Shown one piece after another: positions 47,368 through 55,868 of a DNA stretch of 64,000 bases (position 1 is the stretch's first letter; every line of letters starts with the position of its first letter). The stretch comes from a virus (Duplodnaviria > Caudoviricetes), in the IMG/VR virus record IMGVR_UViG_3300028601_000022, positions 32,001 to 96,000 of that record; one strand, given 5' to 3'. The translations under genes were made by a program, and so were the position numbers. Under the pieces are notes generated by a model that saw only the letters and a program-made list of their open reading frames with translations, was not told where the DNA came from and searched no databases.

Positions 47368-47895
47368 CTAAAGGTCTTCCTTGCGAACGTAGCCACGCGC
47401 TAGTGTAACCAGGTCGCTCATGGAAGAAGTAGCGGTGCTAAGGTTAAGGGACGCTTCCTCGTCCTTGCCAAGAGGCTCGAACTCTTGATGCACCCCAGTG
47501 AGGCAGTCTGCATTCTTTCCGTACAGACCCTTGCTGTCACGGGCAGCGCACACGTCCAACGGTGTGGAGATGTATATGAGGCGGAATTTATCCTCACCAA
47601 TAATACTTTGTGCTGCCTGCCGCATAGACTTCATTGGCGTAATCATGGACACAACGCACGATATGCCCTGGTCATTGCACAACTTGCAGATACCAGCAAC
47701 CCGTCGGACGTTTTCAAGCCGGTCTTCCAGGGAAAATCCCAGGTCAGAACAGATGCTTTGGCGGATAACATCACCGTCAAGGTGAAGGTAAGGCATCCGC
47801 ATTTTAGTGATAATTTCCTTGGCAAAAGTGGTCTTTCCGGCTCCTGACAAACCGAATATCCAGACCGTCCGCACCTTACTCGCGTTTACGCACAT
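47368..47895 (-). CDS. cysC: Adenylyl-sulfate (APS) kinase
   Basis: WIFGLSGAGKTT, LDGD.IR, DLGFSLEDRLENVRR, ITP, TPLDVCAARDSKGLY, TGV..EFE. Confidence 0.92.
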   Translation of the reverse strand: MCVNASKVRTVWIFGLSGAGKTTFAKEIITKMRMPYLHLDGDVIRQSICSDLGFSLEDRLENVRRVAGICKLCNDQGISCVVSMITPMKSMRQAAQSIIGEDKFRLIYISTPLDVCAARDSKGLYGKNADCLTGVHQEFEPLGKDEEASLNLSTATSSMSDLVTLARGYVRKEDL

Positions 47896-47907
47896 TTAAT
47901 CCTCCAT

Positions 47908-48051
47908 TCAATACGTTACATCTGAATCGGCAGGATATACCCGCCCACACTTGATGCACTCCACTATCCTCTTTTTAGCCATGAAAATCTTAGGTTCAGT
48001 AGGGCTACCCAGTACGGTCGCCGCAGCAGATGTAGAAGAACCTCCGCTCAT
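47908..48051 (-). CDS. 47-aa peptide with Ser/Gly-rich N-terminus and CxxC
   Basis: AAAGGAGG RBS before MSGGSSTSAAA...CIKC. Confidence 0.5.
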   Translation of the reverse strand: MSGGSSTSAAATVLGSPTEPKIFMAKKRIVECIKCGRVYPADSDVTY

Positions 48052-48114
48052 TATAGCCTCCTTTAGGTAACCTATCTTCATATACTTAAACGTCATTTAG
48101 GATATTGGAACAAA

Positions 48115-48222
48115 ACGTGTGTATTGACACGCGCAGCGAAAATATAACCCAATAGGAACGCCTACGGGTGCCCTATGGTGTGTCCAGGGTACTCATAGGC
48201 GCTCCTATTTCCTAGTTTTTCA
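48115..48222. repeat. Intergenic palindromic element, copy 3 (diverged)
   Basis: CGTGTGTATTGACACG...ATAGGAACGCCTACGGGTGCCCTATGGTGTGTCCAGGGTACTCATAGGCGCTCCTAT. Confidence 0.75.
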
Positions 48223-48425
48223 ACGGCCTGGTCTATTGGTAATCACCCTGCAACCGGCGTTTTGCTGCGGCATCCAGTACCTCATAGCACTTGCAGAAAC
48301 GGGTACCCGTGATATTACCCTACGAGGAAACACGGTAGAAAATGCCTTGGTATTAGGCGGAGTATAAGACATTCTCCTCGAAGGGTGGCGTTTCAAGAAG
48401 GGAAGAGGCCGGACACGCCCGTAAC

Positions 48426-49331
48426 CTACGCCTTTAGCTCAAGGAAGGCTACAACGTCTTCCCTCAGCGTGTTATCCGAATCTATGTAGCCGCAGCACTT
48501 CTTTGTGCAGGGCCCCTGGCGAAGGCAGGTATTGTTCTGCTTGTGACGGTCACCCATGTGCAGCCAGGTTTCATCATCCAAGGTGTAATACAGGTTGGTA
48601 GAATGCTGGCTAACACTCAACAGCGTATTGAGGTCAATGTCGCCTGAGCTATCGGCCTTTTCAAGAAGCCGAAAGAAGTCCGCCCGCTTAGGGAAGAATC
48701 CGGGAAGGTTATCTTCCATGTCGGCCTTGTCTTTGAACTTAATGAAAGGAACATACGGTGTGTTGAAGTCCACCCTACAGCCCCATTTTTCCTCGAACCC
48801 CTTCACTGTGAACTCACCCTTGAGGTAAGAATCAATGAATGCCTGGGTCATAATGATTTCCACATGCAGGGGTATTTCAGGATACAGGTCATGAAGGATC
48901 TTGACGTTCTCCTCCCAATGCTTCCGCGTTACCGGATTGAATCGGTATGCCGTATCCCAAGAGGTGCAGAGGAGGAATCTGTTAGCTACACCGAAGAACC
49001 GCAGCAACCCGCAGGCATGAAGCAGCCTGGTTTCATCGCCGTACATAAGGGACGTGCAAATAAGACCACGCTCGGTATGGCCGTACTTTATTCGGTATGC
49101 AATGGATACCAGAAGGTCTTCAAAGGCCCACTGAATCTTCCGTGATTCAAGTTGGCCGTCAAAGAACTCGCCGCCAATGAGGGAGATAGAGTCGCAGTTA
49201 CCTACTTCCTCTATCTTCTCCTTAGCAAAGCGCAATGATTCCAACTTATCCCTGACGTGTGGTATATCACGGTTACAGCAGAATGGGCAGTTGTGCCTGC
49301 AGTCCTTCCACAGTTCAAATTGAAGAAACAT
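48426..49331 (-). CDS. Radical SAM enzyme, paralogue 4
   Basis: LQFELWKDCRHNCPFC; IGGE; SWD.AYRF; IMTQ.FID; FFPKRADF; C-terminal C..C..CCGYIDSD. Confidence 0.88.
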   Translation of the reverse strand: MFLQFELWKDCRHNCPFCCNRDIPHVRDKLESLRFAKEKIEEVGNCDSISLIGGEFFDGQLESRKIQWAFEDLLVSIAYRIKYGHTERGLICTSLMYGDETRLLHACGLLRFFGVANRFLLCTSWDTAYRFNPVTRKHWEENVKILHDLYPEIPLHVEIIMTQAFIDSYLKGEFTVKGFEEKWGCRVDFNTPYVPFIKFKDKADMEDNLPGFFPKRADFFRLLEKADSSGDIDLNTLLSVSQHSTNLYYTLDDETWLHMGDRHKQNNTCLRQGPCTKKCCGYIDSDNTLREDVVAFLELKA

Positions 49332-54588: not shown

Positions 54589-54600
54589 ATTCCCCTCGGT

Positions 54601-55266
54601 CTATGCTACAAGATTATACCAGGCGATGTAGGAGCAGGAGCTTGAAGAACTGGAAGAGCAGGAACTGGAAGAACTCGAGGAGCACGAGGAGCTGGACGAG
54701 CTGGACGAGCAAGACGAGCAAGTAACTGCCATCGCGCCCCAACTGACAGAGCAGGGGGCGGCTTTGTATGCGTCGATGCCGTCCTTCAAAGCAGCCAACA
54801 TGCCGGTAATGTCAGAAGCCTTGATGGGCTCAAGTTCCGACGGCTCCGTGATTGCAGGAAGGGGATTGTTCACAAAGCAGCGCGAAGTGAGGCCATTCGT
54901 GGGGTTTGTAACCACCACAAAGCGCACCGAAGTGTAGGTGGCCAGGCATGTAAGGAAGTGAATCAGACCCTTCAGAGTGATAAGGTTGTCCATCTTGGAC
55001 GCAAACCCGTTTTCATTGATGAAGGTGTTCCATGCCGCAGTGAATGCCGCTGTGGTAACGATGGGTGGGCGGCCAGAGAAGTTAATGTCCAACCTGGCAG
55101 CGGCAGCCTTCAACTGGCCAGTAACCGTAACGGTACGGCCAGTGAAGCTGGGGTCTGTGATATTGCCTTTGTAAACGTCAAGGTTGTCGATAGAGGTCTT
55201 GAGGGTTTCAAAAGCCTCATTAACAACCTGTCCAAACGTAATAACTGCACCGGGTAAAATAGCCAT
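54601..55266 (-). CDS. 221-aa protein with C-terminal Cys/poly-Ser tract; candidate substrate (precursor) of the adjacent enzymes
   Basis: GGAG RBS before MAILPG; ends TCSSC-S8-C-S7-C-S7-CSYIAWYNLVA. Confidence 0.8.
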   Translation of the reverse strand: MAILPGAVITFGQVVNEAFETLKTSIDNLDVYKGNITDPSFTGRTVTVTGQLKAAAARLDINFSGRPPIVTTAAFTAAWNTFINENGFASKMDNLITLKGLIHFLTCLATYTSVRFVVVTNPTNGLTSRCFVNNPLPAITEPSELEPIKASDITGMLAALKDGIDAYKAAPCSVSWGAMAVTCSSCSSSSSSSSCSSSSSSSCSSSSSSSCSYIAWYNLVA

Positions 55267-55288
55267 AAGCTCAATCTCCATGTAGTAA

Positions 55289-55315
55289 CGGGACTTCTCC
55301 TAGAAAGAAGCCCCG
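55289..55315 (-). promoter_or_regulatory. Stem-loop upstream of the Cys/Ser protein gene
   Basis: CGGGGCTTCT-loop-AGAAGTCCCG on the minus strand, no U tail. Confidence 0.4.
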
Positions 55316-55346
55316 CACGTTTTGTTTTCAGAGGCCAAAGCCGTTT

Positions 55347-55868
55347 TTACAGCTTTTCGAGAAAGGCGCCGACCAGGGCATGGTTGCCGAGAATACGCGA
55401 AAGCACAGAGAAGCCTTCCTTGACCTTGTACAGGTTCGTCATGTCGATGCGGGACATATCGACCTTGCCCATGAGCGAGGACATGAGGGGCGCCGTGCCG
55501 AGAAGGAAGATGCCGTAGAACATGGTTGGAATGGAGACCTTGGAATCATCCTGCTCAATGGTGAGGGGAATGTCGCAGGAAGTAAGGATGGAAAGGTACC
55601 ACTTGACCAGTTCCAAGATAAATTCATGGAGTTCGGTCTGCAGGGCCGACTTCACGTCAATGAATTCGGAAATTTCATTGAAGTAACAGTTTTCCTGCTT
55701 GAAGAAATCCTCGTCAAAGACGTTGTAGGAGTTCACCAAGCGGTACACGTTGAGAATGTCCACTTCGTTGCAGTCATTGCCTTCGGCAAGATAGCCGTTG
55801 GTAAGGAGCTTGCGGAAAACCTCAATCTTCTGTTCCAAGGGAAGTGCTTTGATTTCCTGGGGTGTCAT
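55347..55868 (-). CDS. Hypothetical acidic helical protein at the head of the radical SAM operon
   Basis: AGGAG RBS; strong C-ending codon bias suggests high expression. Confidence 0.75.
   Translation of the reverse strand: MTPQEIKALPLEQKIEVFRKLLTNGYLAEGNDCNEVDILNVYRLVNSYNVFDEDFFKQENCYFNEISEFIDVKSALQTELHEFILELVKWYLSILTSCDIPLTIEQDDSKVSIPTMFYGIFLLGTAPLMSSLMGKVDMSRIDMTNLYKVKEGFSVLSRILGNHALVGAFLEKL

What the first reader, a model, noticed from the sequence alone, without database searches (positions are those of the whole stretch)
47368..55868. Phage-encoded RiPP-like protein-modification operon: Cys/poly-Ser substrate, four radical SAMs, an O-carbamoyltransferase and an APS kinase
Seen: a tightly packed minus-strand run reading 173-aa ORF, 221-aa Cys/Ser-tailed protein, rSAM1, rSAM2, carbamoyltransferase, rSAM3, unknown ORF, rSAM4, then cysC about 0.5 kb further on. 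It sits inside the virion module, between the neck gene and the baseplate-chaperone/terminase genes. Established: in sactipeptide and ranthipeptide pathways, radical SAM enzymes with auxiliary Fe-S clusters crosslink Cys sulfur to other residues of a co-encoded precursor; TobZ/NodU/CmcH enzymes O-carbamoylate hydroxyls; CysC makes PAPS. Inference: the phage post-translationally crosslinks and decorates the Ser/Cys tail of its own protein, either a virion component or an excised modified peptide. I do not know of a characterised phage system like this.
Basis: partly seen in the sequence, partly recalled or inferred. Interest (0 to 1): 0.95.

Follow-up and report, generated by a model that had tools for sequence, protein, structure and literature searches.

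The report
Phage serine-tailed protein with radical-SAM enzymes
An uncultivated giant phage encodes a protein ending in 30 serines and cysteines next to its own set of iron-sulfur radical enzymes; the pairing recurs in all 24 comparable related gut and rumen phage loci, so this is probably an undescribed way of chemically rebuilding a phage protein.

Summary
The gene run is real and sits at the stated coordinates. The order is a 173-aa protein, a 221-aa protein with a Cys/Ser tail, four compact radical SAM (rSAM) enzymes, a NodU/TobZ-type carbamoyltransferase and a 299-aa unknown. A bona fide APS kinase follows 0.5 kb on.

The core is a conserved module of uncultivated gut and rumen jumbo phages. 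I fetched 25 IMG/VR loci using only the rSAM2 orthologue. In 24 of them a tailed protein lies within 10 kb upstream, and the 25th is cut off upstream. One module comprises the p173 homologue, a tailed protein, a partner paralogue and one copy each of about four rSAM orthogroups.

The tail is 99.7% Ser/Cys, 8-35 residues long, and ends in a cap x-F-I-A-Y-M-x-I. It holds 0-8 Cys with no fixed spacing. That argues against sactipeptide- or ranthipeptide-type Cys crosslinks as the conserved chemistry.

The carbamoyltransferase is an accessory, found in about a quarter of loci. Among the loci compared, the APS kinase occurs only in this phage. A terminator-like hairpin and a dispersed repeat separate it from the operon. 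A sulfotransferase lies elsewhere in the genome.

The most likely reading is rSAM modification of the tail, but the chemistry is unknown. I found no paper describing this. The scan had already met the same system on other DNA.

The parts
55347..55868 (-). p173: first gene of the module, no known family, mostly helical
   Evidence: Homologues in 27 of 29 loci, always beside the tailed gene. No Pfam, PHROG, NCBIfam or PDB match.
54601..55266 (-). Tailed protein (221 aa): about 180-aa alpha/beta domain, Ser/Cys tract, hydrophobic cap YIAWYNLVA
   Evidence: 49 homologues with the same architecture. The N-domain family has 502 representatives at 50% identity. AF2 gives pLDDT 80-92 for residues 11-130 and a disordered tail. 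No fold match was found (best Z 4.6).
54631..54720 (-). Ser/Cys tract, residues 183-212: C-S2-C-S8-C-S7-C-S7-C-S
   Evidence: 25 Ser and 5 Cys, written with all six Ser codons, so not a slippage repeat. Across 83 distinct relatives the tracts hold 1614 S, 274 C, 4 N and 2 T.
53632..54588 (-). rSAM1 (318 aa), lineage-restricted paralogue with CX4CX2C
   Evidence: Same family. Its orthogroup appears only here and in the closest relative L009.
52700..53635 (-). rSAM2 (311 aa), the most conserved orthogroup (OG0), with CGH-x5-C-x6-CxxCD
   Evidence: More than 700 relatives, the top-listed at 52-86% identity. AF2 pLDDT 93.7. Fold neighbours are anSME, ChlB, SkfB, viperin and SuiB at Z 13.2-13.7.
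51195..52697 (-). NodU/TobZ/CmcH-family carbamoyltransferase (about 500 aa)
   Evidence: PF02543 and PF16861 above cut-off; phrog_1601 at 3e-72. HHLYH metal motif is visible. Start refined. Present in 6 of 24 other loci.
50260..51186 (-). rSAM3 (308 aa), rSAM3-type orthogroup
   Evidence: phrog_1802 at 1.7e-12.
49340..50239 (-). Unknown 299-aa protein, lineage-specific accessory
   Evidence: Homologue only in L009. No family or PDB match. Only weak Atlas leads.
48426..49331 (-). rSAM4 (301 aa), orthogroup OG2, keeps CX3CX2C and GGE but lacks the C-terminal Cys motif
   Evidence: OG2 is present in 24 loci.
48097..48425 (-). Structured intergenic region that ends the rSAM operon: a dispersed repeat copy (48111-48213) and a terminator-like hairpin (48132-48115)
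   Evidence: Fold z-score -3.5. Terminator-like site. BLAST copies at four to five other intergenic sites in the genome.
47368..47895 (-). APS kinase (CysC type), doubtful member of the module
   Evidence: PF01583 at 6.8e-37. TIGR00455 scores 127.5 bits against a cut-off of 138.7. P-loop, LDGD and FS..DR.EN.RR motifs are visible. No homologue in the four loci searched by sequence, and no APS_kinase among the 25 commonest Pfam families of 145 neighbour genes.

Best explanation
This is a conserved protein-maturation module of uncultivated gut and rumen jumbo phages.

What it consists of:
- A folded domain of about 180 aa carries a disordered C-terminal tract made only of Ser and Cys, followed by a hydrophobic cap (consensus x-F-I-A-Y-M-x-I; here YIAWYNLVA).
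- The small protein p173 is co-encoded.
- So is a fixed set of about four orthologous compact radical SAM enzymes. These have no RRE domain and, in most paralogues, a minimal one-cluster C-terminal motif CGH...CxxCD.

How it most likely works (inferred):
- Each enzyme makes a 5'-deoxyadenosyl radical and abstracts a hydrogen from the tail. That would be a C-alpha or C-beta of Ser/Cys residues, or a cap residue.
- Together the enzymes rebuild the tail after translation.
- The tract tolerates Ser and Cys interchangeably and almost nothing else, and Cys can be absent. The conserved chemistry therefore probably treats both residues alike. Candidates are oxidation to formylglycine (as anSME does), epimerisation (as YydG/EpeE does), or ether/thioether links through the beta-heteroatom. 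It probably does not depend on fixed Cys donors.
- In this phage the embedded carbamoyltransferase probably adds carbamoyl groups to hydroxyls of the tail or of its product.

The product is probably a virion-associated part rather than a released peptide. The partner paralogue in other phages carries a glycine-rich binding domain, and the module tends to sit among structural genes.

Shown: the genes, the family, the synteny and the orthogroup structure. Inferred: every chemical step and the virion role.
For: - Synteny test: 25 loci were fetched by the rSAM2 orthologue alone. 24 carry a [SC]>=10 tail with the cap within 10 kb upstream; the other is cut 638 bp upstream.
- Family tally over 29 loci: rSAM 139 members in 29 loci, tailed family 51 in 27, p173 29 in 27.
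- Most loci hold one copy each of OG0, OG1 and OG2 plus one or more further rSAMs, of which the rSAM3 type is one. A phage with two tailed pairs has a doubled enzyme set.
- The linkage survives divergence to about 25% identity in the tailed protein.
- Tail composition: 1614 S, 274 C and 6 other residues in 83 distinct proteins. Mixed Ser codons show selection at the protein level.
- Best solved sequence relative: the peptide epimerase YydG/EpeE (E 2.4e-5).
- Fold neighbours include the peptide or protein maturases anSME, ChlB, SkfB, SuiB and CteB (Z 12.6-13.7).
- The carbamoyltransferase lies inside the operon here, in L009 and in 5 further loci.
- The partner paralogue carries Gly_rich_2 / ALK_LTK_GRD in some phages.
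- Tail-fibre or baseplate domains occur next to several modules. Here a head-tail connector gene is adjacent.
Against: - No modification has been observed; the link rests on gene neighbourhood.
- Viperin (a nucleotide enzyme) and the sugar-modifying BlsE and DesII are about as close in fold as the peptide maturases. The fold therefore does not say that the substrate is a peptide.
- No RRE, protease or exporter was recognised.
- Two further paralogues of the family lie elsewhere in this genome, so the family may have other substrates.
- In L012 the module sits among DNA and RNA ligase genes, not structural genes.
- The virion role is inferred from neighbours and from one domain fusion only.
Confidence: 0.62

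Rival explanations
1. The rSAMs are sactipeptide- or ranthipeptide-type maturases that link each Cys sulfur to a carbon of another tail residue, giving a thioether-stapled tail. This is a narrower case of the best explanation.
For: - Most tails hold 2-5 Cys, and this one has 5 at a spacing of about 8.
- SkfB and CteB are among the fold neighbours.
- A three-Cys-plus-His site could leave an open iron for a substrate thiolate, but that is inference.
- Weak NCBIfam hits to PapB and QhpD cover only the cluster-binding N-terminus.
Against: - Cys count ranges from 0 to 8 with no preferred spacing. Two tails have none and seven have one.
- There is no full SPASM motif and no RRE.
- Four distinct orthologous enzymes are hard to explain, because one sactisynthase normally makes all links.
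Confidence: 0.13
2. The rSAMs act on a small molecule, such as a nucleotide sugar, to make an unusual group. That group is then attached to the Ser/Cys side chains and tailored by carbamoylation and, in this phage, sulfation. The tail would be a mucin- or proteoglycan-like carrier.
For: - NodU-type carbamoyltransferases, sulfotransferases and PAPS synthesis are classic glycan-tailoring enzymes (established knowledge of Nod factor biosynthesis).
- This genome also holds a Sulfotransfer_2 gene (E 3.5e-18) and a weak GT47-like gene near the displaced rSAM.
- GT2, DegT and FdtA genes occur beside a few modules.
- BlsE, DesII and viperin are fold neighbours.
Against: - No glycosyltransferase belongs to the conserved core; GT2 is seen in 3 of 24 loci.
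- Thr, the other usual O-glycan acceptor, is excluded from the tracts.
- The sulfotransferase lies 24 kb from the operon.
Confidence: 0.1
3. The modified site is the invariant cap rather than the Ser/Cys tract. For example, a triceptide-like cyclophane could form on Y-M-[K/N/D/R], with the tract serving as a flexible spacer.
For: - The cap is the best conserved part of the tail: F 63, I 71, A 56 and Y 66 of 83.
- Aromatic-X-(K/N/D/R) is the kind of motif used by three-residue cyclophane synthases (my own knowledge, not tested).
- The cyclophane synthase ChlB is a top fold neighbour at Z 13.6.
Against: - A mere spacer would not need to be 99.7% Ser/Cys.
- The window's own cap (YIAWYNLVA) departs from the Y-M-K pattern.
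- ChlB is tied with unrelated rSAMs.
Confidence: 0.07
4. There is no enzyme-substrate relation. The tailed protein and p173 are structural or assembly proteins. The rSAMs modify phage DNA, RNA or a metabolite and merely share an operon.
For: - Phages do use rSAM enzymes in DNA base modification, and an earlier first-stage note (not checked here) reports 7-deazaguanine-type genes elsewhere in this genome.
- Two family members sit away from the cluster.
Against: - The core module contains no nucleotide-handling gene.
- The enzyme set doubles when the tailed pair doubles.
- Linkage held in 24 of 24 informative loci at very low sequence identity.
Confidence: 0.06

Closest known systems
Epipeptide system YydF/YydG (EpeX/EpeE) of Bacillus subtilis
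   Same: Best sequence match among solved structures (E 2.4e-5 over the first 172 profile positions). It is a compact rSAM of about 320 aa with one extra cluster that abstracts a C-alpha hydrogen from a co-encoded peptide.
   Different: The match covers the N-terminal half only. YydG is a single enzyme acting on a short peptide with Val/Ile targets. Here about four orthologous enzymes accompany a 220-aa protein with a poly-Ser/Cys tail, in a phage.
Anaerobic sulfatase-maturing enzyme (anSME, PDB 4K36)
   Same: Top fold neighbour (Z 13.7, 261 residues aligned). anSME oxidises either Ser or Cys to the same product, formylglycine. That would explain a tract that allows only these two residues.
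   Different: anSME has a full SPASM domain with two auxiliary clusters, whereas this family has at most one 3-4-Cys site. anSME targets one residue in a sulfatase motif. Its Z score is tied with ChlB, SkfB, viperin and SuiB.
Sactipeptide and ranthipeptide (SCIFF) maturases such as SkfB, CteB and PapB, and other rSAM systems with low-complexity precursors (CXXX-repeat, His-Xaa-Ser)
   Same: These are rSAM enzymes paired with a co-encoded precursor whose C-terminal core is repetitive and Cys-rich. SkfB and CteB are fold neighbours (Z 13.5 and 12.6).
   Different: The Cys residues here are neither conserved nor required. There is no RRE and no seven-Cys SPASM motif. Several distinct enzymes act per substrate. 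The 'leader' is a folded 180-aa domain with a tailless paralogue.
NodU/NolO/TobZ/CmcH O-carbamoyltransferases
   Same: Both Pfam domains are above cut-off, and the Kae1-type HHxxH motif is present.
   Different: Known members carbamoylate sugars or antibiotics. A protein-bound Ser, or an rSAM product on a protein, would be a new acceptor. The related HypF does carbamoylate the C-terminal Cys of HypE (my own knowledge).

Membership tests
Radical SAM superfamily (PF04055) | Cys triad CX3CX2C for the SAM-binding [4Fe-4S] cluster | tested here: met
   Invariant C18, C22 and C25 in 38 aligned members. rSAM1 and the paralogue at genome 14146 have CX4CX2C instead.
Radical SAM superfamily (PF04055) | Score above Pfam's gathering threshold | tested here: not met
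   18-22.6 bits against 29.5 for rSAM2, rSAM3 and rSAM4, and no hit for rSAM1. The family is too divergent for the model.
Radical SAM superfamily (PF04055) | Partial TIM-barrel fold and GGE SAM-binding motif | tested here: met
   GGE is invariant. The AF2 model has pLDDT 93.7, and 36 chains at Z 8 or more are almost all rSAM enzymes.
SPASM-domain rSAM maturases | Seven-Cys motif that binds two auxiliary clusters | tested here: not met
   Only C282, (C290), C297 and C300 plus H284 are present. The rSAM4 orthogroup has lost them altogether.
Sactipeptide / ranthipeptide systems | Conserved Cys donors in the precursor core | tested here: not met
   0-8 Cys, spacing spread over 1-17, and two tails without Cys.
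Sactipeptide / ranthipeptide systems | RRE (PqqD-like) leader-binding domain on or beside the maturase | tested here: inconclusive
   The rSAM core starts at about residue 10, so there is no N-terminal domain. p173 has no PqqD or other Pfam match, but its fold was not predicted here.
Sactipeptide / ranthipeptide systems | Thioether bond in the product | not testable with these tools
   Needs mass spectrometry.
Epipeptide epimerase YydG/EpeE | Full-length homology, including the catalytic H-donor Cys and Asp | tested here: inconclusive
   The profile match is E 2.4e-5 but covers only chain residues 26-178. The catalytic residues lie outside the aligned part.
NodU/TobZ/CmcH carbamoyltransferase | Carbam_trans_N and Carbam_trans_C domains above cut-off | tested here: met
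   78.3 bits (cut-off 24) and 137.9 bits (cut-off 27).
APS kinase (CysC) | PF01583 above cut-off, with P-loop and APS-binding motifs | tested here: met
   127.3 bits against 21.1. GLSGAGKTT, LDGD and FSLEDRLENVRR are seen in the translation. TIGR00455 is just under its equivalog cut-off (127.5 against 138.7).
RiPP pathways in general | Proteolytic release of a modified core peptide | tested here: inconclusive
   No protease or exporter was recognised among the core genes or 145 neighbour genes. Several genes remain unassigned.

The most novel reading that the evidence does not exclude
The four orthologous rSAM enzymes carry out a multi-step rebuilding of a homopolymeric Ser/Cys tract that has no precedent among RiPPs. 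One example would be turning about 23 consecutive residues into a poly-aldehyde, an alternating D/L chain or a ladder-linked chain. The result would be a new kind of covalent or adhesive appendage on the virion of a large clade of gut phages.
Probability: 0.3. Interest if true: 0.92.

Novelty: new variant of a known kind. Interest (0 to 1): 0.78.

Why it matters
- Post-translational rebuilding of proteins by rSAM enzymes is known almost only from bacterial peptide natural products and a few enzymes.
- Here a fixed set of four such enzymes is tied to one protein family across a large clade of giant gut and rumen phages. The rSAM2 search alone returned more than 700 relatives, and the tail-carrying domain has 502 clusters at 50% identity.
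- None of the core genes has an informative family annotation, and I found no paper on the system.
- The substrate is simple: a run of Ser and Cys plus an 8-residue cap. The chemistry is therefore directly testable by co-expression and mass spectrometry.
- The outcome could be new enzyme chemistry on serine. It could also show a new way for phages to build or harden a virion part in anaerobic habitats.

Tried and rejected
- DNA and protein searches of 50,697 GenBank phage records found nothing. The clade has no sequenced isolate in that collection.
- The scan of GTDB species genomes found only MAG contigs. Their taxonomic labels are inconsistent and several are 245-283 kb long. I read them as mis-binned phages, so they give no host.
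- The complex prediction of rSAM2 with the last 52 residues of the tailed protein gave no verdict (score 0.02).
- Fold searches with the tailed-protein model gave no credible match in PDB (Foldseek and VIA wide), BFVD or the ESM Atlas (best Z 4.6).
- p173 has no match in Pfam, PHROGs, NCBIfam, PDB sequences or the Atlas.
- The 299-aa protein gave only weak Atlas leads (Tlde1-like 0.78; a structural row with a PG_binding_1 family on 37% of members) and no PDB hit.
- Sulfotransfer_1, Sulfotransfer_3 and PAPS reductase are absent from the genome. Sulfotransfer_2 turned up only when I scanned the neighbours of the displaced rSAM.
- Rfam and tRNA scans of the region were empty.
- Five literature searches found no description of the system.
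- I rejected the idea that the Ser tract is a slippage artefact, because the codons are mixed.
- I rejected an Fe-S or metal-binding role for the tail, because Cys-free tails exist.

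
Full report
**Observation**

The window is bases 32001-96000 of a 142.8-kb IMG/VR virus record that CheckV rates about 52% complete, so the phage is probably a jumbo phage.

The genes are packed with 2-20-nt gaps or 4-nt overlaps. The two exceptions are 80 nt before the tailed gene and 329 nt after rSAM4. 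Homologues of the tailed protein start at MAILPG, so 54601-55266 (221 aa) is the right reading. The carbamoyltransferase most likely starts at the GTG at 52697, behind a GGAGG. That is two bases after the rSAM2 stop and matches where the L009 orthologue begins.

**Identity of the parts**

- The carbamoyltransferase has both Pfam domains above cut-off. It also matches the PHROG 'Nol-like carbamoyltransferase' at 3e-72.
- The kinase is a real APS kinase. PF01583 scores 6.8e-37, and the P-loop, LDGD and FS..DR.EN.RR motifs are present. It falls just under the TIGR00455 equivalog cut-off.
- The four rSAMs fall below Pfam's threshold. They share CX3CX2C (rSAM1 has CX4CX2C), GGE, a TSYD..YRF block and, except rSAM4, a C-terminal CGH-x7-8-Y.DSD.C..CD motif.
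- An AlphaFold model of rSAM2 is confident (pLDDT 93.7).
  - Its nearest solved folds are tied at Z 13.2-13.7: anSME, ChlB, SkfB, viperin and SuiB. CteB, NifB, MoaA, PqqE, BlsE and EpeE follow.
  - By sequence profile the best solved relative is the peptide epimerase YydG/EpeE (E 2.4e-5, N-terminal half only).
- The family has no N-terminal RRE and at most a one-cluster 'twitch-like' C-terminus rather than a SPASM domain.
- The genome holds six paralogues, not four. The extra two are at genome 14146-15048 and 107618-108565, both outside the window.
- p173, the tailed protein and the 299-aa protein match no family. The tailed protein's N-domain model finds no known fold.

**Is the pairing more than chance?**

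The tailed protein has 49 word-search homologues. All are 200-240 aa and all end in a Ser/Cys tract plus a hydrophobic cap. An exhaustive profile search with the N-domain alone finds 502 cluster representatives at 50% identity.

I fetched IMG/VR loci with the rSAM2 orthologue only, which gave 25 loci from phage contigs of 16-314 kb. I then looked for tails. In 24 loci at least one ORF within 10 kb upstream has a run of ten or more Ser/Cys and the cap. The 25th locus is cut 638 bp upstream of the rSAM.

I clustered all ORFs of 29 loci:
- rSAM family: 139 members in 29 loci.
- Tailed family: 51 members in 27 loci.
- p173 family: 29 members in 27 loci.
- A 329-aa family 'X': 19 members in 18 loci.
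- Carbamoyltransferase: 7 members in 6 loci.

The usual order is p173, tailed protein, a partner paralogue, then three to seven rSAMs and X.

A tree of the 141 rSAMs resolves three orthogroups: OG0 (rSAM2 type), OG1 (the copy displaced to genome 107618 in this phage) and OG2 (rSAM4 type, which has lost the C-terminal Cys). They are present once in 24-28 loci. A faster-evolving rSAM3 type is also seen. A phage with two tailed pairs has a doubled enzyme set. The enzymes are therefore not interchangeable copies. They form a fixed kit of about four, which points to a multi-step pathway or a multi-part machine.

**What the tail tells us**

In 83 distinct tailed proteins the tracts contain 1614 Ser, 274 Cys, 4 Asn and 2 Thr. 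Tract length is 8-35 residues with a median of 23. Cys count is 0-8 with no preferred spacing. Two tails have no Cys and seven have one. These composition figures come from a pattern that allowed only short interruptions, so purity is partly built in. The uninterrupted runs show the same thing.

The cap is x-F-I-A-Y-M-x-I, usually running to the C-terminus. The window's tract uses all six Ser codons, so it is selected as protein.

Thr, Ala, Gly and Asn codons are as close by mutation as Cys codons, yet only Ser and Cys are tolerated. That suggests chemistry that needs a primary beta-heteroatom and treats O and S alike. It does not suggest fixed Cys donors. This weakens the sactipeptide/ranthipeptide reading. 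It fits anSME-like oxidation (which gives the same formylglycine from either residue), epimerisation, or links through the heteroatom. None of these could be tested here. The complex prediction gave no verdict.

**Role of the carrier domain**

The partner paralogue ends just where the tail would begin. In some phages it instead continues into a glycine-rich domain, matching Pfam Gly_rich_2 and ALK_LTK_GRD. In those loci it still sits between a tailed copy and the rSAMs.

Tail-fibre, baseplate and head-assembly genes lie beside several modules: Peptidase_G2, Mtd_N, BppL_N and a ClpP-type protease. Here a head-tail connector gene is adjacent, and the large terminase is about 3 kb beyond the APS kinase. 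The displaced OG1 rSAM abuts a baseplate-spike gene.

This makes a virion-associated product more likely than a secreted peptide. It remains inference, and in L012 the module lies among ligase genes.

**Accessory genes of this phage**

- The carbamoyltransferase is embedded in the operon here and in the closest relative L009. It occurs in 6 of the 24 non-redundant other loci scanned (L009 included), so it is a recurrent tailoring enzyme.
- The 299-aa protein and rSAM1 are shared only with L009.
- The APS kinase has no counterpart in the four loci searched by sequence and does not appear in the Pfam tally of neighbour genes.
- The 329-nt gap before the kinase unit folds well (z -3.5). It holds a terminator-like hairpin and a copy of a roughly 100-nt element dispersed through the genome's intergenic regions.
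- I therefore treat the kinase as a neighbouring unit, not as an operon member.
- The phage does encode a Sulfotransfer_2 protein (E 3.5e-18) and a weak GT47-like protein at genome 109.8-112.9 kb, close to the OG1 rSAM. A PAPS-based sulfation route therefore exists, but its target is open.

**Distribution and novelty**

Relatives come only from metagenomes. The GTDB hits are MAG contigs from chicken, rabbit, buffalo rumen and other gut samples. Their labels are inconsistent and several are 245-283 kb long, so I read them as mis-binned phages. Anaerobic habitats suit oxygen-sensitive rSAM enzymes.

Five full-text searches found no description. The scan itself has met the same system on other DNA at least six times, with similar conclusions.

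I file it as a new variant of a known kind: rSAM maturation of a co-encoded low-complexity C-terminal core. There is a substantial chance that the chemistry itself is new.

**Verdict**

The conserved link between tail and rSAM kit is well supported (confidence about 0.6 that the tail is the substrate). The specific thioether model and the inclusion of the APS kinase are not supported.

Noticed in passing
window 48097-48425 (repeat copy 48111-48213): The gap after rSAM4 holds a further copy of a roughly 100-nt structured element. Other copies lie at genome 13969-14071, 49261-49336, 61401-61499 and 101393-101486, with a fragment at 124436-124463. One copy sits just upstream of the stray rSAM paralogue at 14146. 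It is probably a phage transcription boundary element.
   Followed up: partly
genome 107618-112876 (outside the window; L039 3619-8877): A second small cluster holds the displaced orthogroup-1 rSAM, a baseplate-spike OB-domain protein, a weak GT47-like protein, a 253-aa unknown and a Sulfotransfer_2 protein (E 3.5e-18). Together with the APS kinase in the window this gives the phage a complete PAPS-using route.
   Followed up: partly
P0189, P0271, P0285; L050 2174-3472, L051 10001-11137: In other phages the partner paralogue of the tailed protein is fused to a glycine-rich domain (Pfam Gly_rich_2 / ALK_LTK_GRD). That domain ends in a G-Y-V-K-I strand resembling the F-I-A-Y-M-K-I cap.
   Followed up: partly
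L015 8997-9983 and 17 other loci (family X, absent from this genome's 143 kb): A conserved 329-aa module member gives a marginal match to the NifS-like aminotransferase 1ECX (E 0.014). The pyridoxal-binding Lys is replaced by Ala or Ser in all 15 members aligned (T-A-H-A). It may be a degenerate PLP-fold protein.
   Followed up: partly
window 53632-54588 and genome 14146-15048: rSAM1 and the stray paralogue have a CX4CX2C cluster motif instead of the canonical CX3CX2C.
   Followed up: no
window 57107-57580 and 3872-7945: The 157-aa protein next to the connector gene is similar (E 5e-16) to part of the 1357-aa protein encoded at 3872-7945.
   Followed up: no
L010 3029-3229: A 285-kb relative encodes a ribosomal protein S21 homologue about 7 kb upstream of its module.
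   Followed up: no
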